Part shown: positions 37,343-56,616 of the stretch, piece after piece | Layout of the letters: each line of letters opens with the position of its first letter | Position numbering within the stretch: the stretch's first letter is position 1 | Assembly (NCBI GenBank): GCA_965249135.1 | Contig: OZ252220.1 | Location: forward strand, 672,001 to 736,000 | Direction of reading: 5' to 3' | Source: Alphaproteobacteria bacterium | GTDB lineage: Bacteria; Pseudomonadota; Alphaproteobacteria; GCA-2746255 | Length of the DNA: 64,000 nucleotides | Notes under the pieces: model-generated | What the model was told of the DNA's origin: nothing | What the model saw: the letters and a program-made list of their open reading frames with translations, nothing else | Database searches by the model: none | Program-made: the position numbers and the translations under genes

Positions 37343-37362
37343 AGATCCTGAGGCTTGGTTGA

Positions 37363-37932: not shown

Positions 37933-38167
37933 GCGCCGCTGTCCGATGGTCTCGCATGGACACGGTGCGCCCGCATGCGTCTCTGCCCGGCTCCGATTGT
38001 CTGCCGTAGAGTTTCTCGCCGAGCCTCTTGACCAGCTCGCGCTCGGGCCAGGTGAGGCGGCCGTCCTCGGCGGCGATCACCAGAATGCCCTGCTCGCGCC
38101 AGCCCTCGCGTTTGATCTCGCCGGCCGGCCGGCGCCCGCCGCCATAGCCCTTGGGCAACCACCTCAC
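37925..38167 (-). CDS. Conserved phage hypothetical protein
   Basis: GTGA overlap start; RWLPKGYGG.RR...KREGWREQGIL...LTWPERELV..LGEKLYG. Confidence 0.6.
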   Translation of the reverse strand: MRWLPKGYGGGRRPAGEIKREGWREQGILVIAAEDGRLTWPERELVKRLGEKLYGRQSEPGRDACGRTVSMRDHRTAARG

Positions 38168-38421
38168 CGGTTGATCTCCCGCAAGCAGGCGCCGTAGCCG
38201 AGGACGTCGACGAGGCTGTCGAGATGCCTGGGGTCGTGGGCGAGCCGCGCCATCTTGAGGTCCATCAGGCAGACCGCCACCTGGGCCGCCGTGACCCGGA
38301 TCCCGAGCACCTGCGACCAGCGGGCGGCGACATGCTCGAACAGATCCTCGGGCGCGCCGTAATCGGCCCGGCGCTTGTCGACGGCGCCGGCGGCGTGCTG
38401 GAGCAGCATGGCGCCGTTCAT
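38164..38421 (-). CDS. DUF6378-like phage protein
   Basis: RRADYG.P...VAARWS...MDLKMAR...DSLVDVLGY. Confidence 0.75.
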   Translation of the reverse strand: MNGAMLLQHAAGAVDKRRADYGAPEDLFEHVAARWSQVLGIRVTAAQVAVCLMDLKMARLAHDPRHLDSLVDVLGYGACLREINR

Positions 38422-39029
38422 CGCGCACCCGCCCGGCTCTCGATCGCCCACAGCAGCAGCGCGATGGCGTCGGCCTCGTTGTCGTCGGCAGGGTCAAACC
38501 CGCGCTCGCGGACGGCGGCGATTACCGCCTGCTTGGACGCGTTGCCCTTGCCGGTGACGTGACACTTGATGGTGCCGACCGGCACGCCCTGATAGGGAAT
38601 GGAATGGTGCTCGCACCAGGCGGTCGCATGCGCCAGGAAGCCGCCGTAGATCTGAGAAGCGCTGGTGCCGGCGTGGCGGCGGACCTCCTCGAGGCAGACC
38701 GCATCGATGCCGCCGGCCGTATTCTTGATCTCGGTCAGCCAGCCCTTGAAGCGCAGGAATCGCATCCCGCCGCCGGAGAACCGGTCCGGGCGGAACGACA
38801 TGGTGCCACTGGTGATGGCGCCGTCTCCGTCGCGGAGCGCCCAGCCGGTCGCGGTGCCGAGATCGAGGGCGAGCACGGCGCCGGGACCGGACACGCCGGA
38901 GTCGGTGGCGGCCGGCACCGGGGGTTCGGCCACCGGGCGGGCAATACCGGCATTGCCGCCGTGCCGGGCAGCCGGCAGCCGGGCGCGGTGTTCAAGCGGC
39001 GGTTTCTTGGGCAGAGTTACATGAGCCAT
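38418..39029 (-). CDS. Phage RuvC-like Holliday junction resolvase
   Basis: VLALDLGTATGWA, EEVRRH, GKGNASK, DDNEADA. Confidence 0.85.
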   Translation of the reverse strand: MAHVTLPKKPPLEHRARLPAARHGGNAGIARPVAEPPVPAATDSGVSGPGAVLALDLGTATGWALRDGDGAITSGTMSFRPDRFSGGGMRFLRFKGWLTEIKNTAGGIDAVCLEEVRRHAGTSASQIYGGFLAHATAWCEHHSIPYQGVPVGTIKCHVTGKGNASKQAVIAAVRERGFDPADDNEADAIALLLWAIESRAGAR

Positions 39030-39059
39030 GGTGATCTCCTTTGATCGGGGTTGTCGTGG

Positions 39060-40163
39060 TCAGGGTGGCGGCGGGGAACTGCCAGGAACGCCGCCGCCAC
39101 CCGCTCTTGCGCGTTGGGTGGCGCAACACGCGGTGGACCGGTCGGGGCGGCGGCGCCGCGGACCGGCCAGAACGGGCGATTTGGGAGGGGGTGAACGTGT
39201 ATCCGGGGTTTGATTTTCACGATGCGAGCCCGGTGAACGTGGGGAACGTTGATCCGGCCCTTGATTTTCTATCGTGAGCCGCCAGCGCTGCGCCTGATGA
39301 CGCACGCCGGCCACCCTGACGCATATCTTGACCTCACCGATCGCGAAGACACGGTCGCGCAACCGGCCCAGCGCCCGGCCGAGACGGGTGCGCTGCGAGC
39401 GCTCTCCGCCGTCGCCGAGCGGCAGCGGCGGCTCGCAGGCGAGCGCGAGCTCGTGCAGCTCGGCCGTGCCGACCTCGGCGGTGCCGTGGCGTTCCCACCC
39501 CGCGGCCACGAAGGCGCGCCAGACCGCGCCCTCGGCGTCGGCCGCCTCGTACATCTCGTCGAGATTGGCGAGGAAGCCGGGATAGCCGGTGCGGGTCTCC
39601 CAATGGGTGAGATCGGGATGGAACCTGAGTTCGGCCGTGTCGGGCACGGCGAGGCCGCGGGCCTCGAGGTAGGTCTCAGCCGAGCTGTCGGCGAGCGCCC
39701 GGCATCCCTTGATGATGATCTCGATCTCGCGGCGGGCGTTCTCCTTGCTGCGCGTCTCCGGCGCGGTCCCGGATGCGGACCCGGCGCCGTCCTTCGGCGG
39801 GGCGGGCGCTGCGGTGCGTACCGGTGCGGTGCCGACGATCTCGGCGGCATAGTCGAACAGCGCCCGGCCCGTGAGACCGGTCGCGTGCTCGAGCGTGCTC
39901 AAGGGTCCGCCGCCCTCGCCGGTGTCGAAGTCGATCCAGTCGCCGGCGTGCGCGCCCTTGAGCGCGATGACGCAGGAGCCGTTCTTGCGCGGCGTATCAC
40001 CGCCGATGTTGGCGAGCCGCCACTCGTCGCCGTTGCGCCTGCCGTTCGGAAAATGTCGCGGCACCCAGAGCTCGGCGGAATCGCGGAGCCGGCTGACGAT
40101 CTCGTCGAGATCGTGGCGGGCGGGTTCGAGGCCGAACGGGCGGGTGTCGTTGAGGTCGATCAC
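39060..40163 (-). pseudogene. Phage primase-like replication protein with probable internal deletion
   Basis: N-terminal GDWIDFDTGEGG and YLEARGL...LRFHP, then GYP-GFLANLDEMYE with no Toprim EG/DxD motifs. Confidence 0.6.
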
Positions 40164-40453
40164 TGGAACGCCTTCTCCGGGACTACGCCGGTGAAGAAGC
40201 TCCTGTCCTCGCGGATCGCCATGAAGCCGAAGCCGGGCCCGCGATGATGGGGGTCTGCTCCGATCCACAGGTTGGCCTCGGGGTCATGGACCCAGCGCCC
40301 GGGCCCGAAGAGGCGGTCGAGAAAGCGCTCCATGGGCATGGCGCAAAGACGCTCTTCAATTGCGCGCACCTCCTCGACGGAGATGCCCGCTTCGCGGGCC
40401 CATAGAGGATGTTCTTCCTCGCGGTCCGGCGGACCGTGCCGATCGTTACTCAT
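40160..40453 (-). CDS. Hypothetical protein
   Basis: RBS GGAGGAG before ATG 40453; stop overlaps the next start. Confidence 0.5.
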   Translation of the reverse strand: MSNDRHGPPDREEEHPLWAREAGISVEEVRAIEERLCAMPMERFLDRLFGPGRWVHDPEANLWIGADPHHRGPGFGFMAIREDRSFFTGVVPEKAFQ

Positions 40454-40470
40454 GTTCTCCTCCAGCCCTT

Positions 40471-41772
40471 TCAATCGAGAATGACCAGGCCGCGCTCGGC
40501 GCGCGTGATCGCGGTGTAGAGCTAGCGGGCGCGGTCCTCGGCGGTGCGCCCGAGACCGTCGTCGAACACGATGACGTTGGGCCAAGCGGAGCCCTGCGAT
40601 TTGTGACAGGTGACGGCCCAGCCCCAGACCGCCTCGATCAGGCCGCGCCGGGTCCAGTGGTCGCGGCGGCCGCGGTCGGGAGCGGCCTTGATGTGGTCGT
40701 CGAAATGCCCCTTGTAGATAAAGTGCCGTTGGGGCTTGTCGGCGCCGCCGCCGACGATGTCCCCGTCCTCGGTGCGGATGGTGGCGGAGAAGGAGGTCTC
40801 GTTCTCGTCGCGCACCTCGCCGAGGGTGAGGAACATGCCGTTGACGACGCCGAGGTCGTTGCGGTTCCTGAGACAGATGATCTTCTCGGACGTCCCGCTG
40901 CGGACCTCGCCCGTGGGATAGATGCTCTCGTAGCCGGCGGCGCGCTTCATGGCGTTGTTGAGCTGCAGGCGGGTAGCGTTCCTGCCGCAGATCACCTGGC
41001 CGCCGCGCAGCATCTGCTCGGGGCCGACATCGCTCCGCCGCATCTTCCAGACGAAGGCGTCGTGCCGGCCGTAGGGGATGGGCCGGCCCTCACGGGCCAT
41101 GGTGGCCAAGCGAATGACGGCGCTGTCGCCGGCCTGGCGGTGGATCTCGGTCAGCATCACGTCGGGCTCGGCCTCGGTGAAGGCGCCCTGGCCCTTGATC
41201 GGCGGCAGTTGGCCGGGATCGCCCAGCACCAGGATCGGCTTGCCGAAGGCCAGCAGATCGCGTGCCATCTCGTCGCCGACCATGGAGACTTCGTCGAGGA
41301 CAATGAGCTTGGCGTCGCGGACGGCGGACTGGTCGTTGAGGACGAAGCGGGGCTTGTGGGCGTCGTCGAGCCGGAGTTCCAGGCTGCGCAACCGGGATTC
41401 CTCCAGCAGCCGCTCGCCGGAGCGGAGGCTCGGCAGCCTCGCCTTGATCCCGGCGATGTCCTTTTTGACCTTCTCGATCTCGGCCTCGGTCGCCTCCGAG
41501 ACGCGGTAAATCAGGCTGTGGATGGTGGAAGCGGGGGTTCCCTTGCGGGTCATCACCAGCGCCGCCTTGCCGGTGTAGGCCACATAGAGCACGCCGTTCG
41601 AGCATTCCTCGAGGCCGAGTTCCTCGATGATGTAGCGGGTAATCGTGCTTTTCCCGCAGCCGGCGTAGCCCCAGATTCGCGCGACTTGCTGCTCCGCGGT
41701 ACGGTGCTGGAACCAGTCCACAACCGTCTTCAGCGCCTGCGTCTGCTGGTCGGAAAGCGTTATCCGGTCCAA
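40471..41772 (-). pseudogene. RecD/Dda-like SF1 helicase with a nonsense mutation
   Basis: GYAGCGKS, LDEVSMV, LGDPGQLPP, TCHKSQGS. TAG at 40522-40524 sits where W is expected before LYTAITRA; TTG start with RBS GAGGAGG. Confidence 0.88.
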
Positions 41773-41904
41773 GGTGTTTCCTCCTCTGTCACGTGCTTCC
41801 AAATCCGACCCTTGGCGATGGCGTAAATCGTCTCCTTCCTGACGCCGTGCAGACGGGCAATGCAGGCGCCACAAAGCCCGACGCCGAGCAGACCCTTGAC
41901 GCGC

Positions 41905-42678
41905 TCATCGATCGACGTCCCAGCAGCGTTTGGCGTATTCGCAGAAACGGCAGAGATAGAAGTCCGCGTTGGCGGCGATGCGCGGCGGCAGCTCGCCGGC
42001 CTCGGCGGCCTGGATCACCTGGACCGCCTTGTCGGAGAGGCCTTGCGCCGCGGCCGCATCGAAGGGCACGGCCTCGTGATAGAGCGCCTGGGTGTCCTTG
42101 TTCATGGCCGTGAACAGCGCGAGGCCGGGCGTCATGTAGGCCATGTAGAACTGCGTCTGCCCGTAATAGACCGGCTTGGACGCACGCAGGCCGCGCTTGA
42201 CGGTGTCGGTCCAGGGCCGGGCATTGAGCGCCTTGTGCTCCCAGAGCGCGGGCCACGCGATCCCGACCTCGGGCCCTGAGACGATGACGCCGTCGATATG
42301 GCCGCGGATGCGCCCGCCGGCGGCCGAGAAGCCGAACTGGCCGCCGTCGCGGCGTTGGGTGCGCAGATCGAAGCCGGCGGCCCGTAGCCACTCGACGGAA
42401 AGCGCCTCGAACTGATGGCCGGCGGCGAACACGCGCAGCAGCGAGCCGTCGAAATCCTGGCCCGGGTCCTTCGGCGTGTGGGTGTACTCGTAGACCAGCT
42501 TGCGCGCGCAGGGCTCGCCGATCCGGCTCGCGCCGAGATAGTCGCGCGGACGCGCCGCGCGCTCCGCCGCCTCGAGCGCGGCATCGATCGCGGCGTTGAT
42601 CTGCCGCCCCGCATCGGTAACGGCGGAGGGGCGCAGATAGACGAAGCCCGAGCCGTGGTTGAGATCGACGATCGTCAT
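41905..42678 (-). CDS. Phage PD-(D/E)XK (Cas4/RecB-like) exonuclease
   Basis: YLGASRIGEPC, GHIDG, WEHK, Q..FYM, CRFCEYAKRC. Confidence 0.85.
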   Translation of the reverse strand: MTIVDLNHGSGFVYLRPSAVTDAGRQINAAIDAALEAAERAARPRDYLGASRIGEPCARKLVYEYTHTPKDPGQDFDGSLLRVFAAGHQFEALSVEWLRAAGFDLRTQRRDGGQFGFSAAGGRIRGHIDGVIVSGPEVGIAWPALWEHKALNARPWTDTVKRGLRASKPVYYGQTQFYMAYMTPGLALFTAMNKDTQALYHEAVPFDAAAAQGLSDKAVQVIQAAEAGELPPRIAANADFYLCRFCEYAKRCWDVDR

Positions 42679-42687
42679 CGTGGCCCC

Positions 42688-42903
42688 TCAAAACGGCAAA
42701 TCGTCGTCGAACGGCTGGTTCTCGGCGGCCTGGCGCTGCATGGAGTCCTGGAAGCCGTCGACACAGGCCTCGATGATTTGATCGATCTCTTCGCCCGTCC
42801 GGTCGTGGAACGGCGCCATGAGGCCGAGTTCGCCCAGCGCCTCGGCGAAGAACCGCCTGGTGTCCTTGATCGCCCGCTTCTCCATCCCGGTCTTATCAAT
42901 CAC
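42688..42903 (-). CDS. DUF6511-like phage protein
   Basis: IDKTGME..AI...EIDQIIEACVDGFQ...DDLPF; an in-frame Cys-rich region (CALC...FCSMRC) lies upstream, so the start is uncertain. Confidence 0.6.
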   Translation of the reverse strand: MIDKTGMEKRAIKDTRRFFAEALGELGLMAPFHDRTGEEIDQIIEACVDGFQDSMQRQAAENQPFDDDLPF

Positions 42904-43276
42904 GCCGTGAGCCCTCCCGGCGAGGGACGCGCCGGCGTCGAGGCAGCGCATCGAGCAGAAGCCGTAATGGGGGTAGCGGTCCCATTGCAGGCGGAGGCAG
43001 AACCCGAAGCCTCTGGCTTCGCGTCCGCAAAGGGCACAGGGCCGGCAGTCATCAAGAGGCGGGCGAGATCGCCGTCCCGCTTCGGGCGCATCCCGGTCCG
43101 CTCCGAGGCCAGCACGATGAACCGCGCAATGGCGTTCGACGCCATCGCTTCGAGCTCGGGCATGGTCAAAGAGCGGATGGGCCGGTGGAGCCTTCCCCGC
43201 GCTTCGAGCCACGCGCCGACGGCTCTTGCGGCTTCGCCGGTGACGTGGGCCTGCCATTCGTCGTCGCGGTCATCAT
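42900..43276 (-). pseudogene. Conserved phage hypothetical protein with a disrupted start
   Basis: DDEWQAHVT.EAARAVGAWLEARG...ELEAMASNAIARFIV is out of frame with the ATGs at ~43273. Confidence 0.45.
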
Positions 43277-43997
43277 CCGTTCAGCCAGTCGGGCCCGGCG
43301 GCGCCGGAGCGGGCGCGGGAGCGGCCTGTGCGGCCGTCTGGGCGGGTGGTGCCGCGGGTGCGGAGGCTGGCGCGGGCTGGGCTTGCGGCTGTTGCCACGC
43401 GGCCTGGGTCTGGGCCGGCGCGGGCGAAGCGGCGCCGGTGCCGCGGGACCGTGACGGCGCCGGCGGCACCGCCTCGCCGTTCATCACCGCCCGCCATTCC
43501 TTCTCGTTCGGCAGCACCGGACGGTCGAGCCGATTGCGGTCCGGGTAGCGTGGATCGTTGTTGGGCTCGACCATGATCCTGGCGACGAACGTGATGCCGT
43601 TCAGATCGGCGAGACCGCGCAGCTGACGCTTCTGCCGGGCCGCCTCGCTCATGTCCTCCGGGTCGAGCGCCAGCGCGCTGTCGATCATGGCGCGGACCAT
43701 GCGCTTGGAGATGTTCCAGCCGATCGAGGCGCCGTTCTCGTCGACCTTGCCGCCGGCGACGGTGAACAGCTGCCAGAATTTTCGGCGCGCATGCGGGCCC
43801 TCGGCCACGGTGAACTCGCAATCGAGCGAGAGCACGTCGCTCCCGGGCGTGTTCGAGGCCTTCAAGAGGCCCTTGTCGTGCTCGCCCTGGCCGTCCACGC
43901 CGCCGGGGCGGACGGTCATGACGACCTTGGCGAAGCTGCCGTCGGGGATGAGATCGGTGCCCTGGTGGGGCTTGACGTCGTTGAAGTTGTAGGTCAT
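43273..43997 (-). CDS. Phage SSB-like (DUF669-like) protein, frameshift in the last codons
   Basis: LDCEFTV.EGPHARRKFW, Pro/Ala-rich tail; the terminal PDWLNG is shifted to another frame. Confidence 0.7.
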
Positions 43998-44012
43998 CGC
44001 GATTCTCCTTTC

Positions 44013-44867
44013 TCAGCTGGGTTGCGCCGGCGTCGTGGACGCGGACGCCCGGTTGATCTTGTCGAGCAGTGCGGCGAGGTCGGGCGGCTCGGTGATGTCG
44101 AGGCGGCCCGAGCGGTCCTTGGCCGGCAGGCGATAAGGATTGCCGGAGCGGCAGACCAGGCGGCGGGTCTCGCCGCTCTCCGGCGCATATCGCCAGCCTT
44201 CACCTTCGGCCTCGAACAGGCCCATGGAGATCACCTGATCGACGATGCCGGGGAGCTCGCGGGCGGCCTTGCCGCCCTCCATCTGCGGCTGCCAGTGCTC
44301 GCGGTTGAACTCGTCGGTGACGCACTCGAGGATGCCGACGAAGACCGCGGTCCGGCCCGGCGCGTGCTGGGGGTGCTTGAGGAGCCCGATGACCTCGCGG
44401 GCGAGCACTCCATAGGCGCCGCGGAGATCGGGCTTGCCGGTCTTGTCGGAGACCGATTCGGGCCGGGTCCTGGCCCATGCCATGGCCTGGCGGGTGAGAT
44501 CGGTGATCGAATCGACGAAGACGATGCGTTTGCCGGCAACCACCGGCACGAGCTCGGCGTAGACCTGGGCGACATGGCGGTAATGGCCCTCGGAGAAGAA
44601 GCTGTTGGGATCGGCCGCCGGATCGACGCCGCCGACGAGGCAGGCGATATCGAGCGCGTCGGCAAAGGTGCGCACCGGGATGCTCATGCCCGGCCAGTCC
44701 TGGACCGACTTCATGCCGGCCTCGAGATCGATGCACAGCGTCTCGTCCGGCGGCAGGGTGCGGAGCAGCGAGGTCTTGCCGACGCCGGAGGGGCCGAACA
44801 GCGCGACGGTGGTCTTGCCCCGGGCCTCGGCGAGGCGCTCGTCGGCGGTGATGATGCGCAGGCTCAT
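44013..44867 (-). CDS. Phage AAA ATPase (AAA_24/Sak4-like)
   Basis: GPSGVGKTS, IDLEAG, FVDSIT, AKDRSGRL. Confidence 0.85.
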   Translation of the reverse strand: MSLRIITADERLAEARGKTTVALFGPSGVGKTSLLRTLPPDETLCIDLEAGMKSVQDWPGMSIPVRTFADALDIACLVGGVDPAADPNSFFSEGHYRHVAQVYAELVPVVAGKRIVFVDSITDLTRQAMAWARTRPESVSDKTGKPDLRGAYGVLAREVIGLLKHPQHAPGRTAVFVGILECVTDEFNREHWQPQMEGGKAARELPGIVDQVISMGLFEAEGEGWRYAPESGETRRLVCRSGNPYRLPAKDRSGRLDITEPPDLAALLDKINRASASTTPAQPS

Positions 44868-45184
44868 GATCTGCCTCCCCGGTTACGCGGCGGCGCCCGC
44901 CGGGCGCAGATCGCGATGTAGCTGTAGTCGGCGTCGCCGTGGCGGCGCTGAACCAGATGAACGAGGCCCTGCCCGGAGGCCCGCATCGCGGCCGTGGCGA
45001 GGCGGTCGAGCGCGGCCCGCGTCTCCGCATCCGCCGCGTCCGGCCGCTTCTCGCGGTCAGCGATGAGATGGCCCCGGTGATGGGCGATGCGGCTTCCCGC
45101 ATGGGCCGCCCCGAGCCAGGCGGCGAAGTCGGCTGCGTCGAGGACGGGCTGCGGTGCGGCCGGGCGCGGCAGGACGGCGTTCAT
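44864..45184 (-). CDS. Conserved phage hypothetical protein
   Basis: FAAWLGAA..G..IAHHRGHL..DR...GLVHLVQRR...YSYIA; ATGA overlaps at both ends. Confidence 0.65.
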   Translation of the reverse strand: MNAVLPRPAAPQPVLDAADFAAWLGAAHAGSRIAHHRGHLIADREKRPDAADAETRAALDRLATAAMRASGQGLVHLVQRRHGDADYSYIAICARRAPPRNRGGRS

Positions 45185-45372
45185 GCCGCGGTCTCCTCGG
45201 CCGCCACCTCGCTCCTGTAGACGGCGATCAGCGGGATGCCGTCGCTGGTGGTGCCAGCATCCTCCAGGTGATAGTCGTTGCCGGGCTCCAGGACCTCGGC
45301 CAGCTCCCAGCGCCGGAACAGCCCCGGAATGCGGTAGAGTTCGCTTGGCAGCAGGGGGATCGGAAGGGTCAT
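45181..45372 (-). CDS. Hypothetical protein, first gene of the leftward operon
   Basis: 63 aa, coupled to the next gene, RBS GGAG. Confidence 0.55.
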   Translation of the reverse strand: MTLPIPLLPSELYRIPGLFRRWELAEVLEPGNDYHLEDAGTTSDGIPLIAVYRSEVAAEETAA

Positions 45373-45420
45373 GGATGGCTGTCTCCGCTCTCCCGGCGCC
45401 GGCTGGTCCGGCGCTTCTAT

Positions 45421-45455
45421 TGGTTAAAAGCGACTTTCGGCGGCGGATTGGGACA
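45421..45455 (-). promoter_or_regulatory. Element-specific promoter-like motif, copy A (faces the replication operon)
   Basis: Minus strand TGTCCCAATCCGCCGCCGAAAGTCGCTTTTAACCA; near-identical to 47877-47911. Confidence 0.7.
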
Positions 45456-45585
45456 TCGCGGGACGAAAAACATTTCGGGCCCGTGCCCGAACCGGACCGG
45501 GAGGCCGCGGCATGTGCCGGTTTCCGACGTCTTGGAGTGCTACTGGGACGCGCGATTGGGACTCGACTAGGCCTCCCCCGTATGA

Positions 45586-45600
45586 GAACATTATGAGAAC
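45586..45600. promoter_or_regulatory. Alphaproteobacterial LexA (SOS) box
   Basis: GAAC-ATTATGA-GAAC, immediately upstream of TTGACG(45608)-N18-TATGAT(45632). Confidence 0.7.
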
Positions 45601-45693
45601 ATAACCGTTGACGGGGATGCTGGAAGGCGACTATGATAATTCTCATATTCAGGCAAACGCGCAAATGCGTTAACACGAGACGGGACAGAATCG

Positions 45694-45978
45694 ATGGGGT
45701 TCGGCGGCTATCTCAGGAAGAAGCGCGAGGAACGCGAGCTCACCCTCGTCGAGGTCGCCGAGCGGGTCGGCATCTCGGTCGCCTATCTCTCGCGCATCGA
45801 GCGCGAGCGCGAGAACACGCCCAAGGACGAGCTCATTCAGAAGGTCTGCAAGGCGTTGGACCTCGATGCGGACGAGGCCTTCGCGGCGGCGCGGCGCCTG
45901 CCGCCGGACCTGCGCCCACATGCGCACAGCGTCGTGCGGCTCTATCGCCGGCTCGGCAAGGGGGAGTTGAGCCTATGA
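45694..45978 (+). CDS. XRE family HTH regulator (ImmR-like)
   Basis: FGGYLRKKREERELTLVEVAERVGISVAYLSRIER. Confidence 0.92.
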   Translation: MGFGGYLRKKREERELTLVEVAERVGISVAYLSRIERERENTPKDELIQKVCKALDLDADEAFAAARRLPPDLRPHAHSVVRLYRRLGKGELSL

Positions 45979-46768
45979 CCACACCCCGGATTTTCTACCG
46001 CCATGCGCGGGCGACGGCGAAGCCGCACTATGTGAGCCGGTCCGACGTCGCTCGGGTGGCGTCGGCTGTGCGCAGCCAGCTCGGCTACCGGGACCATCAC
46101 GCCAGGATCGACTACCGCGAGATCGCCGAGCGCATCTCGCGTCTCGGGGTGAACGGCATCGATGTCGCCGTCGATTGGGATCTGGAGGGGACGGTCGAGG
46201 ACGAGACCGGAGCGCCGGCGCTCGGCTCCTGCGAGTACGACCTGGCGGTGCCGGGCCATGCGCTGATCTACGTCAACCGCCAGGAGATCGGCGAGCGCAG
46301 CTATCTCGGGCGCAGCACGGTGCTGCACGAGCTCGGCCACGCGGTCTTCGATGCCCCGGCCCGGGTCCTCGCCAACCGACAGGGGCGGCTCGATCTCGGC
46401 GACGACAGCCGCGGCAGCCGGGCCTTCCGTCTGGTGACGCCCGGCCCCGAGCATCTCGGCAACAGCCGTACGGCGGACGGATCGATGGACTGGGCGGAGT
46501 TCCGGGCCAACGAGTTCATGGGTCGTTCCTGGCGCCGCTGACGGCAATTCGCCGGACGCTGCGCCGATTGTGTCAGCGCTTCGAGGTGCCGCTGGTCGAG
46601 GAGAGATCCCGGACCGGCCGGGCGCGGATCAAGGCCGACTTCACCGGCCGGCACGCCTGCAAGCTCGAGACGGCGGTCTTCGAGCTTGCCGAGGACTTCG
46701 GGCTGTCGCCCGCCTTCATCGCGGTGCGGCTCCGAAAATACGGCCTGGTCCGGGGGCAGGGCTTGTAG
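45975..46768 (+). pseudogene. ImmA/IrrE family metallopeptidase, frameshift at ~46522
   Basis: RSTVLHELGH (HEXXH) and EFRANEFMG, then SFLAP...FGLSPAFIAVRLRKYGL in another frame. Confidence 0.85.
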
Positions 46769-46838
46769 CGGCGCGAGGAATAGGGGGGAGAACGGGGAGC
46801 CTCGCTCCCCTCTCTTTGGCCCGGGAGTTCAACAGTTT

Positions 46839-47045
46839 ATGCAAACTAATGAACAATGGCGGTGCAACAGATGCCGCAAGCTCCTGGGGATCATCCGCGG
46901 CGGACGGCTGCATCTGCGGTTCGGACGCGGGAATGAGTATGTCATCGCCTTCCCGGCCCTCGGGCTGTGCCGGCGCTGCCTGACCCTGAACACCGCCACA
47001 GGGCCGCCGGACCCGCCGTCCGAGGAGCCGATACGATACCGCTGA
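46839..47045 (+). CDS. Small zinc-ribbon protein, Mu Com-like
   Basis: WRCNRCRKLLG...CRRCLTLN, matching the Com pattern RC..C.KLL...C.RC...N. Confidence 0.7.
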   Translation: MQTNEQWRCNRCRKLLGIIRGGRLHLRFGRGNEYVIAFPALGLCRRCLTLNTATGPPDPPSEEPIRYR

Positions 47046-47151
47046 GCGGTTTAGGTCCTTCCTGATCATTCGTTCATTCACCGAGAGGCGCGCGACGCCC
47101 TGACCCCGGCCTTCATGAGGCGCCAGACGCCCGGCCGAGAGGCCGGCGTCC

Positions 47152-47864
47152 ATGCGCTCTCTCTGGTTGTCGCTCCACGAGCGGCTGGTGCACAGCACCG
47201 AAGACCTCACCTTCCAACGACGATCCAGACCCTGGCACGCTCCGATCCCGTGCTCGCGCCCTTCTCCGATCCAGGCGCGCTGCTCGCGTTGCTGCACGGC
47301 CGTGACGCGGAGCCGGAAGAGAAGAACCGCATCCTCACCGCGCTGGTCGCGGAAGCCCAGACGGGCGGCTCCTCCGGCGAGACCGCTCAGACCATGCTCT
47401 GGCTCGCGCTCTGGCCCGGCCTCGATGCCGTCCACCGGCGGCTGTCGCGGTTCTACCGGAGCGCGCCCGAGGAGTTGGTCTCGGAGATCGCCGGGCGGTT
47501 CACGACCGGGATCGCCCGTCTCGATCGCTCGCGCGTCCGCCGCATCGCGGCGACGCTGATCCGCAATGTCGAGCGCGACATCCGCGCCCGGCCCAGCCCG
47601 ATCCCGGCGGACGAGCCGATGGAGGAGGCCGCGCCCTTGTCGGTCCTGGGTCTGCCCGATGGCGTGGACCCGGAGCTGGCGACGGAACTCCTGGGCGAGC
47701 GTCTCCGCGCCTGGATCGGCGATGACGCGGACATCGTCCTCGCCATCGCGGTCGTCGGCGAGACCTCGGACGAGGTTGCGGCCCGCCTCGGCACGACCGC
47801 CTCGGCCGTGCGCAAGCGCTACCGGCGCGCCCTCGCCCGGTTGCGGACCGCGTGGGAGGAATAA
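47152..47864 (+). pseudogene. Sigma-70/ECF-like protein, frameshift at ~47224
   Basis: LWLALWPGLDAV...IAATLIRN.ERD and a region-4 HTH EVAARLGTTASAVRKRYRRAL; the N-terminus MRSLWLSLHERL is in another frame. Confidence 0.7.
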
Positions 47865-47876
47865 TTCGGGGCGGCG

Positions 47877-47911
47877 TGTCCCAATCCGCCGCCAAAAGTC
47901 GCTTTTACCAA
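47877..47911 (+). promoter_or_regulatory. Element-specific promoter-like motif, copy B (faces the recombination operon)
   Basis: TGTCCCAATCCGCCGCCAAAAGTCGCTTTTACCAA, 40 bp upstream of ATG 47952. Confidence 0.7.
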
Positions 47912-47951
47912 GTAGGGGCCGGCCTCGCCGGTTGCGCCAAGGCGGCACGCG

Positions 47952-48161
47952 ATGACCCACAACGCACTCGATCCCGACCGCATGAGCACCGCCGAGCGGC
48001 TCGATGAGCTCGCCCGCATCCTGGCCGCGGGACTGGTGCGTCTCCGAAACCGGTGCTTCTCTGGAAAACGTCATGAGTCCAACGCGTTGAGAGAAGGTTC
48101 GCTGGACTTCCCGGCCCCGCAGAGCGTTCATGACGCACCTCGAACGGAGAACCCGTCATGA
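47952..48161 (+). CDS. Small conserved protein preceding DUF2924
   Basis: DPDRMSTAERLDELARILAAGLVRL; ATGA overlap with the next gene. Confidence 0.7.
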   Translation: MTHNALDPDRMSTAERLDELARILAAGLVRLRNRCFSGKRHESNALREGSLDFPAPQSVHDAPRTENPS

Positions 48162-48601
48162 CCGAACTCATCGCCCGGATCGCGGCCCTCAAGACGACGC
48201 CGACGCCGGACCTCCAGGCGCAATGGCGCGAGCTCTTCGAAAGCGAGCCGCCCAGGCGGAACCGCGGATACCTCGAGAGCCGCATCGCCTACCGCATCCA
48301 GGAGCTCGAGCACGGCGGGCTCTCGCCCGCCACCATCGCCCGCCTCGAGGCGCTCGGCGAGACCCTCGACGGCGGTGACGCGACGGTCCGCAAGCGCCGC
48401 GTCGACGGCCGGCCGGTCACCGGCACCCGCCTCATCCGCGAATACCAGGGTGTCGAGCACTGCATTACGGTTATGGCTGACGGCTTCGAATACCAGGGCC
48501 GGCCCTACAAATCGCTCTCGGCCGTCGCCCGCGCCATCACCGGCACCCGCTGGAACGGGCCGCTGTTCTTCGGACTCCGGAACTCTGGAGGCGCCCGATG
48601 A
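48158..48601 (+). CDS. DUF2924 domain protein
   Basis: RIAYRIQELEHGGL, GTRLIREYQG, YKSLSAVARAITGTRWNGPLFFGL. Confidence 0.92.
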   Translation: MTELIARIAALKTTPTPDLQAQWRELFESEPPRRNRGYLESRIAYRIQELEHGGLSPATIARLEALGETLDGGDATVRKRRVDGRPVTGTRLIREYQGVEHCITVMADGFEYQGRPYKSLSAVARAITGTRWNGPLFFGLRNSGGAR

Positions 48602-49910
48602 GCAAGTCCCCGCCACGTAAGTTCCGCTGCGCGGTCTATACCCGCAAATCGAGCGAGGAAGGGCTCGACATGGCGTTCAATTCCCTCGACGCCCAGCGCG
48701 AGGCATGCGAGGCCTATATCGCGAGCCAGAAGCCCGAGGGCTGGGTGGCGATGGATGACCGCTACGACGACGGCGGCATCTCCGGCGCCACCCTCGAGCG
48801 GCTGGCGCTTGTCCGGCTCCTCGCCGACATCGAGGCCGGCCGCGTCGACATCGTGGTGGTCTACAAGATCGACCGCCTGAGCCGCTCGCTCATGGATTTC
48901 GCGAAGCTGATCGAGGTGTTCGAGACCCACGGCGTGACCTTCGTCTCGATCACCCAGCAGTTCAACACCACCACGCCCATGGGCCGGCTCACCCTCAACA
49001 TCCTGCTCTCCTTCGCCCAGTTCGAGCGCGAGGTCACCGCCGAGCGCATCCGCGACAAGTTCGCCGCCAGCCGCCGCAAGGGCATGTGGATGGGCGGCAA
49101 CCCGCCACTCGGCTACGACGTCAAGGACCGCAAGCTGGTGGTGAATACGGAGGAGGCCGCGGTGGTGCGCATGATATTCGAGCGCTTCACGGCCGTCGGC
49201 TCCGCCACCCAGCTCGCGAGGACCCTGCGGGCCGAGGGCGTCGTCACCAAGCGCGGCCGGCCCATCGACAAGGGGACCCTCTACCGGCTCATCAACAACC
49301 GGGTCTATATCGGCGAGGCCGTTCACAAGGGCCGGAGTTACCCCGGGGAGCACGAGGCCATCGTCCCGCGCGTCCTCTGGGACAAGGTCCACGGCATCCT
49401 GAAGGAGAGCCCGCGCCTGCGCGCCAATATCACCCGGGCGCAGACCCCGGCGCTGCTCAAGGGCCTCGTCTTCGGCGCCGGCGGCCGTGCCATGACGCCC
49501 ACCCATACCCGCAAACGCGGCCGGTTCTACCGCTACTACGTCGCCGCTGGGCTCGCCAAGGGCGAGATCCCGGCAGGCGTTGTGCGCCGCGTGTCCGCTG
49601 CCGAGATCGAGGCCGCCGCCGTCCATGAGCTCCGCACCCTGCTGCGCGCGCCGGAGGTCGTCGTCGCCACCTGGCGCGCGGCCCGGGAACGGGACGGCGC
49701 GCTCACCGAGACCGAGGTTCGCGATGCCCTGCAGGATCTCGTCCGCTGTGGGAGGAGCTGTTCCCCGCCGAGCAGGCCCGCCTGGTCCAGCTCCTCGTCC
49801 GGCGCGTCGAGGTCCACCCGGAGGGGTTGAAGCTGCATCTCCGCGTCGACGGGCTCCGCAGCCCGGTCGCCGACATGCGAGCGGAACAGGACCAGAGGAG
49901 GGCCGCCTGA
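48598..49910 (+). pseudogene. Large serine recombinase, frameshift at ~49741
   Basis: CAVYTRKS (catalytic Ser), YKIDRLSRS, FAQFERE, recombinase domain; the C-terminus PLWEELFPAEQARLVQLL is in another frame. Confidence 0.9.
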
Positions 49911-50315
49911 TGACCGAGGCCCGGTTGAGCGACGACGGCGCCACCCTTACCGTCTGGATCCCCATGGCCTTCACGCTCCGGGGCGGGCGCAGGCTGGCGG
50001 TCTCGCCCGACGGCGCGCCGGCCTGGGCCGGGCCTTCGAGCGGGGTCGGATACCCTGGTCAAGGCGCTGGCCCGCGCCTTCCGCTGGCGCAGGCTCCTGG
50101 AGACCGGCGTCCACGGCACCGTCGACGAGATCGCCCGCGCCGAGGGGATCAACGACTCCTGCGTGAGCCGCATCCTGCGCCTCGCCCTGCCCGCCCCCGA
50201 CAGGGTCGGGACCATCCTCGACGGACGGCAGCCGCCCGCGTTCACCCTGGTGCGGCTGATGAAGCCGTTTCCGGTGGAATGGGAACGGCAGCGCGGGTGG
50301 ATTCAGGACTGGTGA
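49910..50315 (+). pseudogene. Recombinase-associated HTH protein, frameshifted
   Basis: LTVWIPM...RGGRR in one frame, TLVKALARAFRWRRLLETG...PVEWERQR in another. Confidence 0.7.
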
Positions 50316-50427
50316 CGCTGCTCCGCCGCTTTGCCTGGGTGAGATAGAAGCGGAGCGTCAGGAATGCGGCGATTACAACGCGAGCAATCTCAGGCGCTTC
50401 CGGCATGACCGGGTCTGGCGGTCCGGT

Positions 50428-53400
50428 CTAGAACGTCACCCTGAGGCCGGCATTGAAGCCATGAGCGGCGGCCCCGTCGCCATACCGGCCCTTGTAGGCC
50501 AGCCCGAGAAAGGCATTGGCCGAAAGGCCGGCCTCGACGCCGAACTCGGTGACCAGGGAATCCTCGGCGGTCGGAGCGCCGGTGACCGTGAAGGCGGTGG
50601 TGCTGCCCCGCAGCGTGGCGGTCGACGACGGGTCGGTGTCGCCGAAGGCATACCGCCAGCCCGCCATGCCGCGGAGATGGATCATGTCATCCACCTCTAT
50701 CGCGCCGCGCAGACCGAGCGTCGTGAACGTCGTGTTGTTGGTATCCGACGAGGCCGCCAGGGCCGCATCGCCGCCGCTTTCGCTGAAGCCGTCCGTGGCG
50801 AGATTGGTATGGGACACGCCGGCAAAAGGCTCCAGCATCAACGCGCCGGCCTGCACCTCGTATCCGGCTTCGGCAAAGAGCTGCCAGCTCCTGGCGTCGT
50901 AGCCGGCCGACAGGCGCTCCGGGGAATAGTTGGTGAAGCTGACCGTCCGGCTGGTGTCCACGGCGTGCCAGTTATGGATCGCTCCGAAGCCGAGACCCCA
51001 AGCGCCGGCCTCGGCGCCGCCATAAAGACCGGCGGACCATGTGTCGACCGAAGCAGAGGACAACCGCGCACGCTGGCTCACATCCGTCCGGCTGTAGCCG
51101 CCGAGGACACCGAGGCGCCAGTGGTCGCCCAACGCACGGTCGGCGCCGAACAGGACGCCGCGCAGGTCCGTCTCCATCCGCGCCGTGCCCGTGCCGGGCG
51201 TGGCATCGGTCTCGCCCCAGGCACCGTAGCCGGTGATCCACGAGCCGCTATCGCGGTCGGCCAGCGACGACGGATTGCCGAAGGCCGCCGTCGATGTCCG
51301 TGCGTCCGATGTCTGTGCGTCCGATGTCTGTGCGTCCGATGTCTGTGCGCCGGGATCGCCGAAGCGCCCGTTCATGCGGCTTTTGACGGCCGCGACCTGT
51401 CTTTGGCCCGTGTCCATCAACGCCCCCTTGAGGGACGCATGCGCCTCGCCCGAAAGCGCATCGGAGGCGGCCCGTACTTCCTCCGCCGTGTTCAGGCCCA
51501 GAATAGCCTGTGTGATTGAGTTGTCTTCTTCCAGGCTGTCGAGTTCCAGGCTGTCGAGGGCGTTGGCCGCCGCCCGCTGGTTGGCCGATCCGGTAACACC
51601 GGTAACCTCGACGATAGTGATGCTGTTTCTTGTGACAGCCAATTCCACATAGTCGGCCCCGTCGCCGACGTCGCCGTCGTCGAGATAGTCCAGCTCATAG
51701 TCCATGAACAATGAGCCGCCGATGACTTCATCGAATTTGTCTTTGATGGTGGAAATGCGATCGGCGTCAAGGATCGTATAGGTGCCCTCATAAGCGCCCA
51801 CGACTCTCACCGTGCCGCCAAGGCGGGCTAAGCCGGTGACGGTGAGCAGGTCGCTACTACCGTTCGGGCCGGTCGTGACGGTAAAAGTGCTGCCTTGCTC
51901 GCCCAAGAAAATGCCCGTCAGAGCGGTCTCCTGCACGGCGCTCGCACCGCCCGGCGACAAATCGCCCCAATTGGTGAAGCGATTGTTGAGACTGAGAATC
52001 ACCGCGGTGCCGGAATTGAACGTTGCGCCCGCCATGTTGTTGAAGGAATTGGCCCCTGCACCCAGATCGATGGTGCCGGGGGCCGTCAACGTGCCCCAAT
52101 TGTCGATTGTCTCGTCGCCGGAGCCCCCCAGCACGTCGTCATATTCTACTAAGACACCGTTTGATCGAATCCTTTCGCCGCCGCGGACCGTCACAGGGCC
52201 CCTGATCGTCAGCGTATTGGTCGCACCATTACTAATTTCGACGCCTGCGCCCTTGGCACTGGTGATGGTCCCGCCATGCAGCGTGATGCTGATGGCGCCA
52301 TTGGATTGTGCATAGATCCCGGTGCTGGTATCGCCCGAGGCGGTGATGTCGCCCGTCACGTCAATCTTAACAACAGCAGAGCTGTTAGGATTATCGGTAC
52401 CGCTATCGTTATCGGAGTATGCATAGATCCCCGAGCTGTTACCGCCTGAGGTGGTGATGTCGCCCGTAAAGTTAACCGTCACAGCGCCATTGCCATAGGA
52501 TAGTGCATAGATCCCCTCGCTCTCCTCGCCCGAGGTGGTGATAGTGCTGCCGTTCTTCATTGTAACCGTCACATCGCCTTTGCCATAGGATTCTGCATAG
52601 ATCCCCTCGCTCTCCTCGCCCGAGGTGGTGATATCGCCCGTCACTACCGTAATATCAATATTGCCGGCGCTGTTCTCGTCCTCGATATACGCAGAAATCC
52701 CTCTGCTTTTCTTTTTCGTGGTGGTGATATCGCCCTCCAGGTCAACCGTCACATCGCCGTCGGAAGCTGCAGAGATCCCGCCGCTGCTTTCGCCATAGGT
52801 GGTGATATCGCCCGTCACATTAACCGTCACATCGCCGTTTTTATCGGAATTTACATAGATCCCATCGCTGCCCTCGTCCGAGGTGGTGATATCGCCCGTC
52901 ATTGTGACCGTCACATCGCCGTCGCCCCCGGAATCTGCAGAGATCCCCTCGCTGTCCTCGCCCGAGGTCTTGATATTGCCCGTCACTGTAACCGTCACAT
53001 CGCCGTCGCCATCGGATTTTGCTGCGATTCCGCTGCTCTGCTCCTCGCCCAAGGTGTTGATATTACCATCCACTGTAACCATCACGTCGCCGTCGCCATC
53101 GGATTTTGCAACGATTCCGTCGGCGTTAATGCCCTCGGTGATGATATTGCTGCCCTTCTTCATGTTAACCGTCACAGCGCCATCGGAATTTGCATAGATC
53201 CCACGGCTCCTTTGCTTGGCTTTGATATTGCCCCTAAATGTAACCGTCACATCGCCGTCTTCGCCGCCACCGCCACCCGACTTTGCATAGATCCCTGCGC
53301 TGCTGGTAGTACCGAGCCCGATAAGCATGTCGGGATCGCCCTCGGTTTCGATATCGCCCGTCACATTAACCGTCACATCGCCGTCGTCCTCGGATCTTGC

Positions 53401-56523: not shown

Positions 56524-56616
56524 TGGCGGAGGGAGGGGGATTCGAACCCCCGATACGGTGTTAAACCGCATAACGGTTTAGCAAACCGTCGCCTTCAGCC
56601 ACTCGGCCACCCCTCC
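56524..56616 (-). tRNA. tRNA-Ser(GCT)
   Basis: GGAGGGGTGGCCGAGTGG...ACGGT-TTGCTAA-ACCGT, long variable arm, GTTCGAATC, ends CCA. Confidence 0.96.

What the first reader, a model, noticed from the sequence alone, without database searches (positions are those of the whole stretch)
46839..47154. Com-like zinc ribbon upstream of a hairpin-locked ribosome binding site
Seen: the sigma gene's SD lies in a strong hairpin GACGCCCGGCC-GAGA-GGCCGGCGTC (47126-47150) ending 1 nt before the ATG, and the leader has a GAGGCGC..GACGCCC direct repeat (~47085, ~47117). Known: Mu Com is a zinc-finger protein that opens an RBS-occluding structure to allow mom translation. Inference: a Com-type translational gate on a sigma factor, an arrangement I do not recognise as described.
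Basis: partly seen in the sequence, partly recalled or inferred. Interest (0 to 1): 0.7.

Follow-up and report, generated by a model that had tools for sequence, protein, structure and literature searches.

The report
Zinc-finger-gated RNA lock on prophage sigma
In a widespread family of prophages, a small zinc-finger protein related to phage Mu's Com sits just before a highly conserved folded RNA leader that hides the start of the phage's own sigma-factor gene, so the protein probably decides when that master regulator is made.

Summary
The hairpin 47126-47150 (-20 kcal/mol, 0 of 200 shuffles as stable), the ATG at 47152 and the direct repeat are real. The ATG is the family's start: 158 of 160 related loci begin there. 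The window's sigma frame breaks at 47222/47223, but contigs of four public runs carry one extra T there, so this is an assembly error.

The 68-codon ORF is a distant Com homologue: profile-profile probability 95.4%, against 0 of 60 column shuffles, though Pfam's own threshold is not met. A like ORF precedes the sigma gene in 144 of 146 sources.

The ~70-nt leader is nearly invariant in 115 distinct sequences, although the sigma proteins are only ~40% identical, and it matches no Rfam family. Each "repeat" is a 4-bp hairpin with a bulged A and a CNNGA loop, resembling the published Com RNA motif.

Best reading (0.55): a Com/mom-type translational activator acting on a phage sigma factor. No binding or expression data exist, and compensatory changes trace to few independent events.

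This is a new variant of a known kind. I found no paper on it. This scan noted it before on other genomes (e1-6065653, e1-5867581).

The parts
46839..47045 (+). Com-like zinc-ribbon gene (68 aa; CxxC at residues 9-12 and 44-47; proline-rich tail)
   Evidence: ORF read. No Pfam hit for this protein at E<=1 or E<=10. The family profile against 6 phage Com proteins gives hhalign 95.4%, E 1.9e-8, and 0 of 60 shuffles reach that score. The AlphaFold model has pLDDT 88, six strands and a floppy tail. A like ORF ends 88-117 nt before the sigma start in 144 of 146 sources. The two exceptions are degenerate copies.
47038..47050 (+). Small hairpin ACCGC-TGA-GCGGT with the zinc-ribbon stop codon in its loop
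   Evidence: Read. A hairpin enclosing or overlapping the stop codon occurs in 99 of 109 distinct relatives, with differing sequence; mean z is only -1.4. Its role is unknown.
47085..47100 (+). Operator-like hairpin 1 (Ha): stem 47087-47090/47096-47099, closing pair G47085-C47100, bulged A47086, loop CGCGA
   Evidence: 99.8% of cells are paired in 115 leaders. Pair 88/98 is A-U in 77, G-C in 37 and G-U in 1. The same holds in 49 metagenome leaders.
47117..47132 (+). Operator-like hairpin 2 (Hb): stem 47119-47122/47128-47131, closing pair G47117-C47132, bulged A47118, loop CCAGA. It shares 47126-47132 with the locking hairpin.
   Evidence: 99.7% of cells are paired, and three of its five pairs show changes on both sides; 98.3% in the metagenome set. 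RNAalifold predicts it.
47126..47150 (+).
   Evidence: -20 kcal/mol, z -4.29. 95.4% of cells are paired; pair 131/152 is C-G in 108 and U-A in 4; G-U variants occur at three pairs. The minimum-energy fold holds at least 80% of its pairs in 92 of 115 leaders, but not in the window's own leader.
47152..47864 (+). Divergent sigma-70/ECF-like sigma gene (237 aa in relatives). In the window the frame shifts at 47222/47223 because one T is missing from the assembly.
   Evidence: Sigma70_r4_2 scores 27.8 bits (cut-off 25.7). Frames were located. The extra T appears in contigs of 4 runs. In the fold search every listed PDB hit is a sigma factor, best E 0.035.
47877..47907 (+). Candidate promoter of the phage sigma, facing the DUF2924/serine-recombinase genes
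   Evidence: The 31-mer TGTCCCAATCC-N9-AGTCGCTTTTA occurs twice in the window against 0 expected. These two are the only copies in the 2.12-Mb genome.
45425..45455 (-). Second copy of the candidate promoter, facing the replication genes (Sak4-like AAA_24 on the minus strand)
   Evidence: AAA_24 and PHROG 124.
46794..46810 (+). Terminator-like hairpin between the ImmA-like gene and the zinc-ribbon gene
   Evidence: Pattern scan: 3 found in the region against 1.2 expected, so the evidence is weak.

Best explanation
A Com/mom-type translational gate on a prophage's own sigma factor.

The mRNA that carries the zinc-ribbon gene continues into a ~70-nt leader. By default the 3' segment GGCCGGCGUC, together with the SD-like GAGAGG, is paired. 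Its partner is either the GACGCC of repeat 2 (the local hairpin 47126-47150) or the GACGCC of repeat 1 (a long-range fold that also covers the AUG). In both cases ribosomes cannot start the sigma gene.

Each repeat can instead fold into a small hairpin with a 4-bp stem, a bulged A and a CNNGA loop. Once enough zinc-ribbon protein has been made, it binds and holds both small hairpins. That takes away both partners of the 3' segment, frees the ribosome site, and sigma is translated. Sigma then directs RNA polymerase to the two outward-facing promoter-like sites, one before the replication genes and one before the recombinase genes.

Shown here:
- conservation of the leader;
- the mutually exclusive pairings;
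- adjacency of the two genes;
- homology of the protein to Com;
- likeness of the hairpins to Com's RNA motif.

Inferred:
- that one transcript carries both genes;
- that the protein binds the hairpins;
- that binding activates translation;
- what sigma transcribes.
For: 1. Gene pair. A CxxC...CxxC ORF ends 88-117 nt before the sigma start in 144 of 146 sources. The other two hold degenerate copies.

2. Homology to Com. The family profile against 6 phage Com proteins gives 95.4% and E 1.9e-8 over both knuckles, with a 16-residue insert. Column shuffles that keep the Cys columns score 16.4 +/- 3.5 (max 25.6) against 42.8, and 0 of 60 reach it. PF10122 is the top Pfam family in 15 of 28 members at E<=10 and in 24 of 150 representatives at E<=0.01.

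3. Leader conservation. It is nearly invariant in 115 distinct sequences while the sigma proteins are 39-50% identical. The covariance model hits 76 of 80 further metagenome loci, each hit ending at the sigma start. There is one copy in the own genome.

4. Structure. Ha+Hb: 99.7% of cells paired, 4 pairs changed on both sides, 0 of 500 shuffles as high; repeated at 98.9%. Hc: 95.4% and 94.3%. In four leaders GGCAC, GAUGCC and GGCAUC changed together, keeping both Hb and Hc. The long-range R1 helix is 98.0% paired, and a U-G pair becomes U-A in 6.

5. Default state is closed. Ha+Hc averages -19.5 kcal/mol and Ha+Hb -7.5.

6. RNA motif. The Com SELEX motif is NGAGNNCC(N)2-3GAGNNCCNN, with GA protected in a hairpin loop next to the start-hiding hairpin (PMC6483171, passages). 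Ours reads A-GAG-RC-GC-NN-GAC-GY-CC. In Mu the stem is AUGC/GCAU with loop CUGCGA.

7. Tail. Like Com, the protein has a low-confidence C-terminal tail.
Against: - There is no binding, expression or transcript data. No RNA run holds the stretch, so co-transcription is assumed.
- The window's own protein has no Pfam hit even at E<=10. The best family member reaches 21.7 bits, under the 22.9 cut-off. Against Mu Com alone, hhalign gives only 23%.
- Compensatory changes trace to few events on the sigma tree: 4, 5, 1 and 1 state changes, with 2-3 independent pairs, so a sign test cannot reach 0.05.
- RNAalifold's consensus picks Ha, Hb and two short local helices, not the full locking hairpin.
- Pair 135/148 of Hc is unpaired in 38 of 115 leaders, and pair 133/150 in 6.
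- A terminator-like hairpin lies just before the zinc-ribbon gene, and no promoter for the pair was found.
- One metagenome locus (L238) with 372 nt of upstream DNA has no leader hit.
- The direction of control (activation or repression) is taken from Mu, not from data.
Confidence: 0.55

Rival explanations
1. The same RNA and the same protein, but with the opposite sign or a different target. The zinc-ribbon protein binds the leader to repress or fine-tune sigma translation, for example by stabilising a closed form. Or it autoregulates through the hairpin at its own stop codon.
For: The RNA and protein evidence does not give a direction. Hairpin-binding phage proteins that repress translation are well known (the MS2 coat protein and its operator; recalled, no call). 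A conserved hairpin encloses the zinc-ribbon stop codon in 99 of 109 sequences.
Against: The small hairpins exclude the locking pairings rather than extend them. The closed state is already about 12 kcal/mol more stable without any protein, so a repressor would add little. The only characterised relative, Com, activates (PMC6483171).
Confidence: 0.12
2. The conserved block works as DNA. Two direct repeats, each with internal dyad symmetry, form an operator or promoter bound by a DNA-binding protein: the Xre repressor, the sigma itself, or the zinc ribbon acting on DNA. On this reading the apparent covariation is symmetric change in the half-sites.
For: Symmetric G:C to A:T changes in a palindrome fit a dimer-bound operator as well as an RNA stem. 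These changes are few events. The block is conserved as sequence far more than a bare structure needs.
Against: - Conservation runs unbroken to the start codon, so a promoter there would leave no room for a leader.
- One-sided changes that keep pairing are G-U on the coding strand: 8, 3 and 2 in Hc and 72 U-G in the long-range helix. On DNA or the other strand these would be mismatches.
- The three-way change GGCAC/GAUGCC/GGCAUC preserves two alternative RNA helices.
- The protein is homologous to an RNA-binding protein.
- The motif occurs only on the sense strand at one fixed place per locus.
Confidence: 0.1
3. The zinc ribbon acts on the sigma protein, as an anti-sigma factor or a co-factor. 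The leader is then an independent cis-acting RNA, such as a thermometer, a small-RNA or ligand target, or a stability element.
For: Sigma genes are often paired with small zinc-binding partners (ZAS anti-sigma factors; recalled, no call). Adjacency alone does not say what the protein touches.
Against: - The family has no HxxxCxxC motif. Its invariant residues are W4, C6, C9, L13, G14, P36, C41, C44, L47 and N48.
- The gene lies upstream of the sigma gene, not downstream.
- Homology is to Com.
- The leader's hairpins resemble Com's RNA motif.
- Two 4-bp hairpins are too small for a typical ligand-binding riboswitch, and no Rfam family matches.
Confidence: 0.1
4. The hairpins are ordinary mRNA structure with no dedicated regulator. 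They were kept because this module spread recently and has not had time to diverge.
For: The leader varies little and the compensatory events are few.
Against: The flanking proteins have diverged to about 40% identity (sigma) and 33-63% (zinc ribbon), while the leader keeps 27 invariant and 32 nearly invariant columns. The DNA between the zinc-ribbon stop and the block is not conserved. Hosts span several alphaproteobacterial orders.
Confidence: 0.05

Closest known systems
Phage Mu com-mom translational control (Com zinc finger, its operator hairpin and the translation inhibition structure)
   Same: - A small four-Cys zinc protein of about 60 aa with a floppy tail, encoded just upstream on the same strand.
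- Its target is a 4-bp hairpin with a C...GA loop next to a hairpin that hides the ribosome site and start codon. In Mu these are AUGC-CUGCGA-GCAU followed by CCCAC...GUGGG with the GUG start (PMC6483171, passages).
- The proteins are homologous by profile comparison.
   Different: - The gated gene is a sigma factor, not a DNA-modification enzyme.
- There are two tandem operator hairpins 31-32 nt apart, not one.
- The second shares bases with the locking hairpin, so the states exclude each other; in Mu the two hairpins are adjacent.
- The genes are about 100 nt apart instead of overlapping.
- The protein carries a 16-residue insert between the knuckles and fails Pfam's cut-off.
- The hosts are Alphaproteobacteria, and the prophages use a serine recombinase and are not Mu-like.
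Com-like genes before other cargo: adenine methyltransferases of FluMu/Pnm1, phage B3, UMP151 and Chuche; Pseudomonas L-type bacteriocins, a tailocin lysis enzyme and levansucrase
   Same: These show that the Com device is modular and sits before costly or late genes (PMC3299994, passages; PMC6240691, passages; records).
   Different: All of those targets are effector enzymes or toxins. None is a transcription factor, and for most no RNA target has been defined. PMC6240691 says the general regulatory role 'remains to be explored'.
Phage-encoded sigma factors that drive middle or late genes (for example phiEco32 gp36, SPO1 gp28, T4 gp55; recalled, no call)
   Same: A phage-borne sigma with private promoters. 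Here the candidates are two identical 31-mers found nowhere else in the genome.
   Different: Those sigmas are controlled by transcription order or by protein partners as far as I recall. I found no described case of a protein-operated RNA lock on a phage sigma. This sigma matches no PHROG family and no record in the phage collection.
MS2/PP7 coat protein-operator hairpins (recalled, no call)
   Same: A short hairpin with a bulged A and a conserved loop is read by a small phage protein to control translation of the next gene.
   Different: Coat proteins repress by holding the hairpin that contains the start codon, and they are unrelated in fold. Here the bound hairpins compete with the one that hides the start.

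Membership tests
Com zinc ribbon (Pfam PF10122, Zn_ribbon_Com) | Four cysteines in two CxxC knuckles | tested here: met
   C6, C9, C41 and C44 are invariant in 28 family members. At least 90% are conserved in 150 representatives.
Com zinc ribbon (Pfam PF10122, Zn_ribbon_Com) | Score at or above Pfam's gathering cut-off (22.9 bits) | tested here: not met
   The window's protein has no hit at E<=10. The best of 28 loci-derived members scores 21.7 bits. Of 150 representatives, 24 match at E<=0.01, best E 1.3e-5. Mu Com itself scores 36.8 bits.
Com zinc ribbon (Pfam PF10122, Zn_ribbon_Com) | Homology detectable by profile-profile comparison with bona fide Com proteins | tested here: met
   hhalign of A3 against 6 phage Com proteins (A6) gives 95.4%, E 1.9e-8 and 39 columns over both knuckles. 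0 of 60 column shuffles reach that score, even with the Cys columns kept. Against Mu Com alone the result is only 23%.
Com zinc ribbon (Pfam PF10122, Zn_ribbon_Com) | About 60 aa with a disordered C-terminal tail | tested here: met
   68 aa. The model has pLDDT 90-97 up to about residue 50 and 64-71 after it. Com is described this way in PMC6483171.
Com/mom-type translational activation system | The regulator gene lies immediately upstream of the regulated gene on the same strand | tested here: met
   144 of 146 sources, with a gap of 88-117 nt. In Mu and five other phages the genes overlap.
Com/mom-type translational activation system | A short operator hairpin with GA in its loop lies beside a hairpin that hides the ribosome site and start codon | tested here: met
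   Predicted and conserved: Ha and Hb with a CNNGA loop, and Hc over the SD-like site. The comparison motif comes from PMC6483171. This is computational evidence only.
Com/mom-type translational activation system | The protein binds the RNA and raises translation; it binds zinc | not testable with these tools
   Needs EMSA, SHAPE, reporter fusions and metal analysis.
Sigma-70 family (ECF-like) | Region 4 (-35 binding helix-turn-helix) | tested here: met
   Sigma70_r4_2 scores 27.8 bits against a cut-off of 25.7, and Sigma70_r4 scores 24.3 against 24.1.
Sigma-70 family (ECF-like) | Region 2 (core binding, -10 recognition) | tested here: inconclusive
   There is no Pfam region-2 hit. TIGR02937 spans residues 94-245 of relative P0029 at E 5e-4, below its cut-off. 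For the model (pLDDT 85.7), every listed PDB hit is a sigma factor over 150-200 or more columns, but the best E is 0.035.
Sigma-70 family (ECF-like) | Cognate promoters | tested here: inconclusive
   Two identical 31-mers face the replication and recombinase operons and are the only copies in the genome. A related two-block motif follows the sigma gene in other clades. There are no transcription data.
Any Rfam RNA family | A covariance-model match | tested here: not met
   There is no match on the leader at E<=10 in 44800-48300. The only two rows are weak and lie elsewhere.
ZAS-type anti-sigma factor | HxxxCxxC zinc motif, with the gene downstream of the sigma gene | tested here: not met
   No conserved His lies before the CxxC (invariant columns), and the gene lies upstream.

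The most novel reading that the evidence does not exclude
The leader is a three-way RNA switch with two decoys. The strand that hides the ribosome site can pair with either of two repeats, so the Com-like protein must occupy both small hairpins at once to open it. That would make a steep, cooperative threshold or timer. A temperate phage would then commit to its lytic programme after transcription, through its own sigma factor. This would also show that the Com fold is a general, portable RNA-operated gate used well beyond Mu-like phages.
Probability: 0.35. Interest if true: 0.75.

Novelty: new variant of a known kind. Interest (0 to 1): 0.62.

Why it matters
Com has been the only studied member of its class for decades, with one known type of target: DNA-modification genes. 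Com-like genes before bacteriocins and other cargo were noted, but their role was left open (PMC6240691). Here the same device appears to control a transcription master switch in prophages found across Alphaproteobacteria. Relatives numbered 204 in genomes, 261 in viral contigs and at least 204 in metagenomes.

If the reading is true, it gives:
- a second, much better-sampled Com-RNA pair for working out how this zinc finger reads RNA;
- a compact protein-operated riboregulator (about 70 nt plus about 55 aa) that could be reused as a tool;
- a testable model of how these uncultured prophages time their induction;
- a new conserved RNA motif for Rfam.

Several hosts are cultured strains, so the tests are ordinary.

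Tried and rejected
**Searches and jobs that gave nothing usable**
- A complex prediction of the zinc ribbon with sigma gave no verdict (score 0.00). It counts neither for nor against binding.
- No RNA holder is listed among public runs, so expression could not be examined.
- A fold search of the zinc-ribbon model against viral structures found nothing at E<=0.001, only generic zinc ribbons.
- A PDB sequence search with the family profile gave a best E of 0.1, for rubredoxin and bL32.
- The ESM Atlas returned only unnamed clusters, half of them viral.
- The word-index search found just 2 relatives of the zinc ribbon. The exhaustive search later found 509.
- The search for related loci with the zinc-ribbon alignment was not possible because it has no conserved stretch long enough. 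I therefore could not ask whether this zinc ribbon ever sits before a different gene.
- The cultured-phage collection holds nothing like the leader plus sigma gene or a family sigma protein (P0094).

**Leads that turned out to be chance or not conserved**
- Extra copies of the hairpin motif 1.2-2 kb downstream in some loci lie inside coding DNA and are chance.
- The ORF from the ATG at 47115 as the sigma start is rejected. Homologues do not cover it, and it exists only because of the assembly indel.
- A conserved upstream ORF in the leader is rejected. An ATG at that place occurs in a few clades only.
- The weak ZMP/ZTP row lies inside the sigma gene on the other strand and is chance.

**Tests without enough power**
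- A class-wide co-occurrence test was uninformative: only 3 of 151 sampled genomes hold the leader.
- The independent-pairs test on the tree lacks power, with 2-3 pairs.

**Literature**
- Four searches and two paper look-ups found no description of this module. Supplements were not consulted.
Full report
**What is in the window.** Positions 37-51 kb form a 66-71% G+C island in a ~58-62% background. The island carries phage genes:
- a Sak4-like AAA_24 ATPase on the minus strand (44013-44867);
- an Xre-type HTH gene (45694-45978);
- an ImmA-like HExxH gene;
- the 68-codon CxxC...CxxC ORF (46839-47045);
- a sigma-like gene;
- DUF2924 (48158-48601) and a large serine recombinase.

The whole genome is one 2.12-Mb contig, 98.75% complete.

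**The observation.** The hairpin alone folds at -20 kcal/mol, z = -4.29, and 0 of 200 shuffles are as stable.

The region-4 sigma match lies in the frame of an ATG at 47115, not in the frame of 47152. Homologues settle the matter. They begin MRSLWLSLHERLVHSTEDLTFQ, which is the translation from 47152. In 158 of 160 related loci a start codon sits 81-85 codons before the LALWPGLD motif. The two misses are L001, whose frame is broken, and L084, which is cut at the contig end.

In the window, residues 1-24 are read in one frame and residues 26-237 in another. Contigs of four public runs from one sample carry one extra T at 47222/47223 in all or most of the depth: X1 31 of 31, X4 53.6 of 53.6, X2 22.1 of 22.1 over the two places, X3 in part. 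One contig is otherwise identical over 134 nt. The same runs add a G at 46523 in the ImmA-like gene and an A at 49741 in the recombinase. All three frame breaks are therefore assembly indels, and the sigma gene is very probably intact in the organism.

**The sigma.** The gene product passes Pfam's cut-offs for region 4 only (27.8 bits against 25.7). NCBIfam ECF models match below their cut-offs, and there is no PHROG family. An AlphaFold model of a 92%-identical relative (pLDDT 85.7) finds no PDB chain at E<=0.001. Even so, every listed hit is a sigma factor: ECF sigma-L and sigma-H, sigma-B, sigma-32, sigma-A, CnrH, SigK and sigma-E, with best E 0.035. I accept it as a very divergent sigma-70 family protein.

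Relatives are common:
- 188 proteins by the word search;
- 204 stretches in one-per-species genomes, mostly Rhodobacterales, Hyphomicrobiales and Rhodospirillales;
- 261 in IMG/VR;
- at least 204 in metagenomes.

None is in the cultured-phage collection.

**The zinc ribbon.** An ORF with W-x-C-x-x-C ... C-x-x-C ends 88-117 nt before the sigma start in 144 of 146 sources that have at least 500 nt of upstream DNA. The two exceptions hold degenerate copies: one has a Cys-to-Tyr change and the other has lost the first knuckle.

The window's own protein has no Pfam hit even at E<=10. PF10122 (Zn_ribbon_Com) is nonetheless the commonest family among relatives:
- 15 of 28 members at E<=10, the best at 21.7 bits, just under the 22.9 cut-off;
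- 24 of 150 cluster representatives at E<=0.01, best E 1.3e-5.

I fetched Com from Mu and five other phages. In each of the six the Com gene abuts or overlaps a Mom-like or adenine-methylase gene or, in Mcat3, a hypothetical gene. The profile-profile comparison gives 95.4% probability and E 1.9e-8 over both knuckles, with a 16-residue insert in our family. With the four Cys columns fixed and the rest shuffled, the score is 16.4 +/- 3.5 (max 25.6) against 42.8, and 0 of 60 shuffles reach it. Against Mu Com alone the comparison is weak, at 23%.

The model (pLDDT 88) is a six-stranded ribbon with a low-confidence tail, as is described for Com (PMC6483171). My conclusion is that the protein is a distant Com homologue that fails Pfam's own threshold.

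**The leader.** The ~70 nt before the sigma start are nearly invariant across 115 distinct sequences, with 27 invariant and 32 nearly invariant columns. The DNA just upstream is not conserved, and the flanking proteins have diverged to ~40% identity. No Rfam family matches.

The two lie 31-32 nt apart at one fixed place per locus.

- On alignment A2 these two hairpins are 99.7% paired. Four pairs changed on both sides, and 0 of 500 shuffles are as high.
It has one compensatory pair (C-G to U-A in 4) and G-U variants at three pairs. Pair 135/148 is unpaired in 38 sequences and pair 133/150 in 6.
- In four leaders GGCAC, GAUGCC and GGCAUC changed together, which keeps both alternatives.
- The 3' arm can also pair with repeat 1. 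That helix is 98.0% paired, and in the clade where the arm reads GACGUC the change repairs this helix while breaking the local one.

Energies favour the closed form: -19.5 against -7.5 kcal/mol on average. The minimum-energy fold holds the locking hairpin in 92 of 115 leaders. In the window's own clade the minimum-energy fold is the long-range version, which also buries AUG and codons 2-5.

An independent set of 76 metagenome leaders (49 distinct), aligned to my model, gives 98.9% and 94.3%.

**Limits of the RNA evidence.**
- On a tree of 114 sigma proteins the covarying pairs need only 4, 5, 1 and 1 state changes. There are 2-3 independent pairs, too few for a sign test.
- RNAalifold's consensus shows hairpins 1 and 2 and two short helices, not the full locking hairpin.
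- The model-fitted alignment A7 leans toward the structure it was built from.

**Likeness to Com's RNA.** In the passages I read of PMC6483171, Com binds a short hairpin next to the "translation inhibition structure" that holds the mom start codon. It recognises CC(N)2-3GAG in the loop, and the GA becomes protected. The SELEX motif is NGAGNNCC(N)2-3GAGNNCCNN. Our hairpins read A-GAG-RC-GC-NN-GAC-GY-CC. In Mu itself the operator is AUGC-CUGCGA-GCAU, followed at once by CCCAC...GUGGG with the GUG start. So the architecture is the same: a 4-bp stem and a C...GA loop next to the start-hiding hairpin. The differences are listed under Closest known systems.

**System level.** A 31-mer, TGTCCCAATCC-N9-AGTCGCTTTTA, occurs twice in the window and nowhere else in the genome. 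One copy faces the replication genes and the other faces the DUF2924/recombinase genes. A related two-block motif directly follows the sigma gene in other clades and recurs before another operon. A sigma-70-like promoter precedes the Xre gene, and a terminator-like hairpin precedes the zinc-ribbon gene. How the zinc-ribbon and sigma pair is transcribed is open.

**Known or new.** Com-like genes are recorded before mom, before adenine methylases (PMC3299994; records), and before Pseudomonas bacteriocins, a lysis enzyme and levansucrase (PMC6240691). Four full-text searches (listings only) and look-ups in two prophage papers found nothing on a Com-type gate on a sigma factor or on this leader. 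I class it as a new variant of a known kind.

This scan had already reached the same reading on other genomes (e1-6065653, e1-5867581). I re-derived it here from this window's own relatives. Those notes are not independent evidence.

**Verdict.** The mechanism stands at about 0.55 until binding and reporter tests are done.

Noticed in passing
window 46523, 47222-47223, 49741: There are three single-base assembly indels within 3.3 kb. Public contigs of four runs add G, T and A respectively. The indels break the ImmA-like, sigma and serine-recombinase frames. Relative L001, from a similar assembly, has a different extra base in its sigma gene.
   Followed up: yes
window 45425-45455 (-) and 47877-47907 (+): Two identical 31-mers, TGTCCCAATCC-N9-AGTCGCTTTTA, face outward from the regulatory block toward the replication and recombinase operons. 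They are the only copies in the 2.12-Mb genome and are candidate promoters of the phage sigma. A related two-block motif follows the sigma gene in other clades.
   Followed up: partly
window 47038-47050 and relatives: The zinc-ribbon stop codon sits in the loop of a hairpin. A hairpin encloses or overlaps the stop codon in 99 of 109 distinct relatives, with differing sequence. There is no U-tract and the purpose is unknown.
   Followed up: partly
L002:4756-5075: In the window's nearest intact relative, a 129-nt unit is repeated about three times head to tail right after the sigma gene. The unit holds the promoter-like motif and a stretch that resembles the operator hairpin (AGAGGCGCCGGA...GGCGTCC).
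   Followed up: no
L029:1361-3565: In the main (Rhodobacterales/Hyphomicrobiales) clade the gene before the zinc ribbon is a 734-aa protein with no Pfam family, not Xre/ImmA. There the sigma gene is followed on the same strand by Sak4-like and helicase genes.
   Followed up: no
window 51292-51349: A 15-nt unit, CGATGTCYGTGCGTC, is repeated four times in tandem, just past the recombinase end of the island.
   Followed up: no
window 37000-51000; 56524-56616: The prophage-like island has 66-71% G+C against ~58-62% around it. The nearest tRNA gene is tRNA-Ser(GCT) on the minus strand. The island's ends and attachment site were not mapped.
   Followed up: no
L238 (metagenome locus): This is the one sigma relative with 372 nt of upstream DNA and no leader hit at E<=0.001. 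It may be a variant without the gate, or a divergent one.
   Followed up: no
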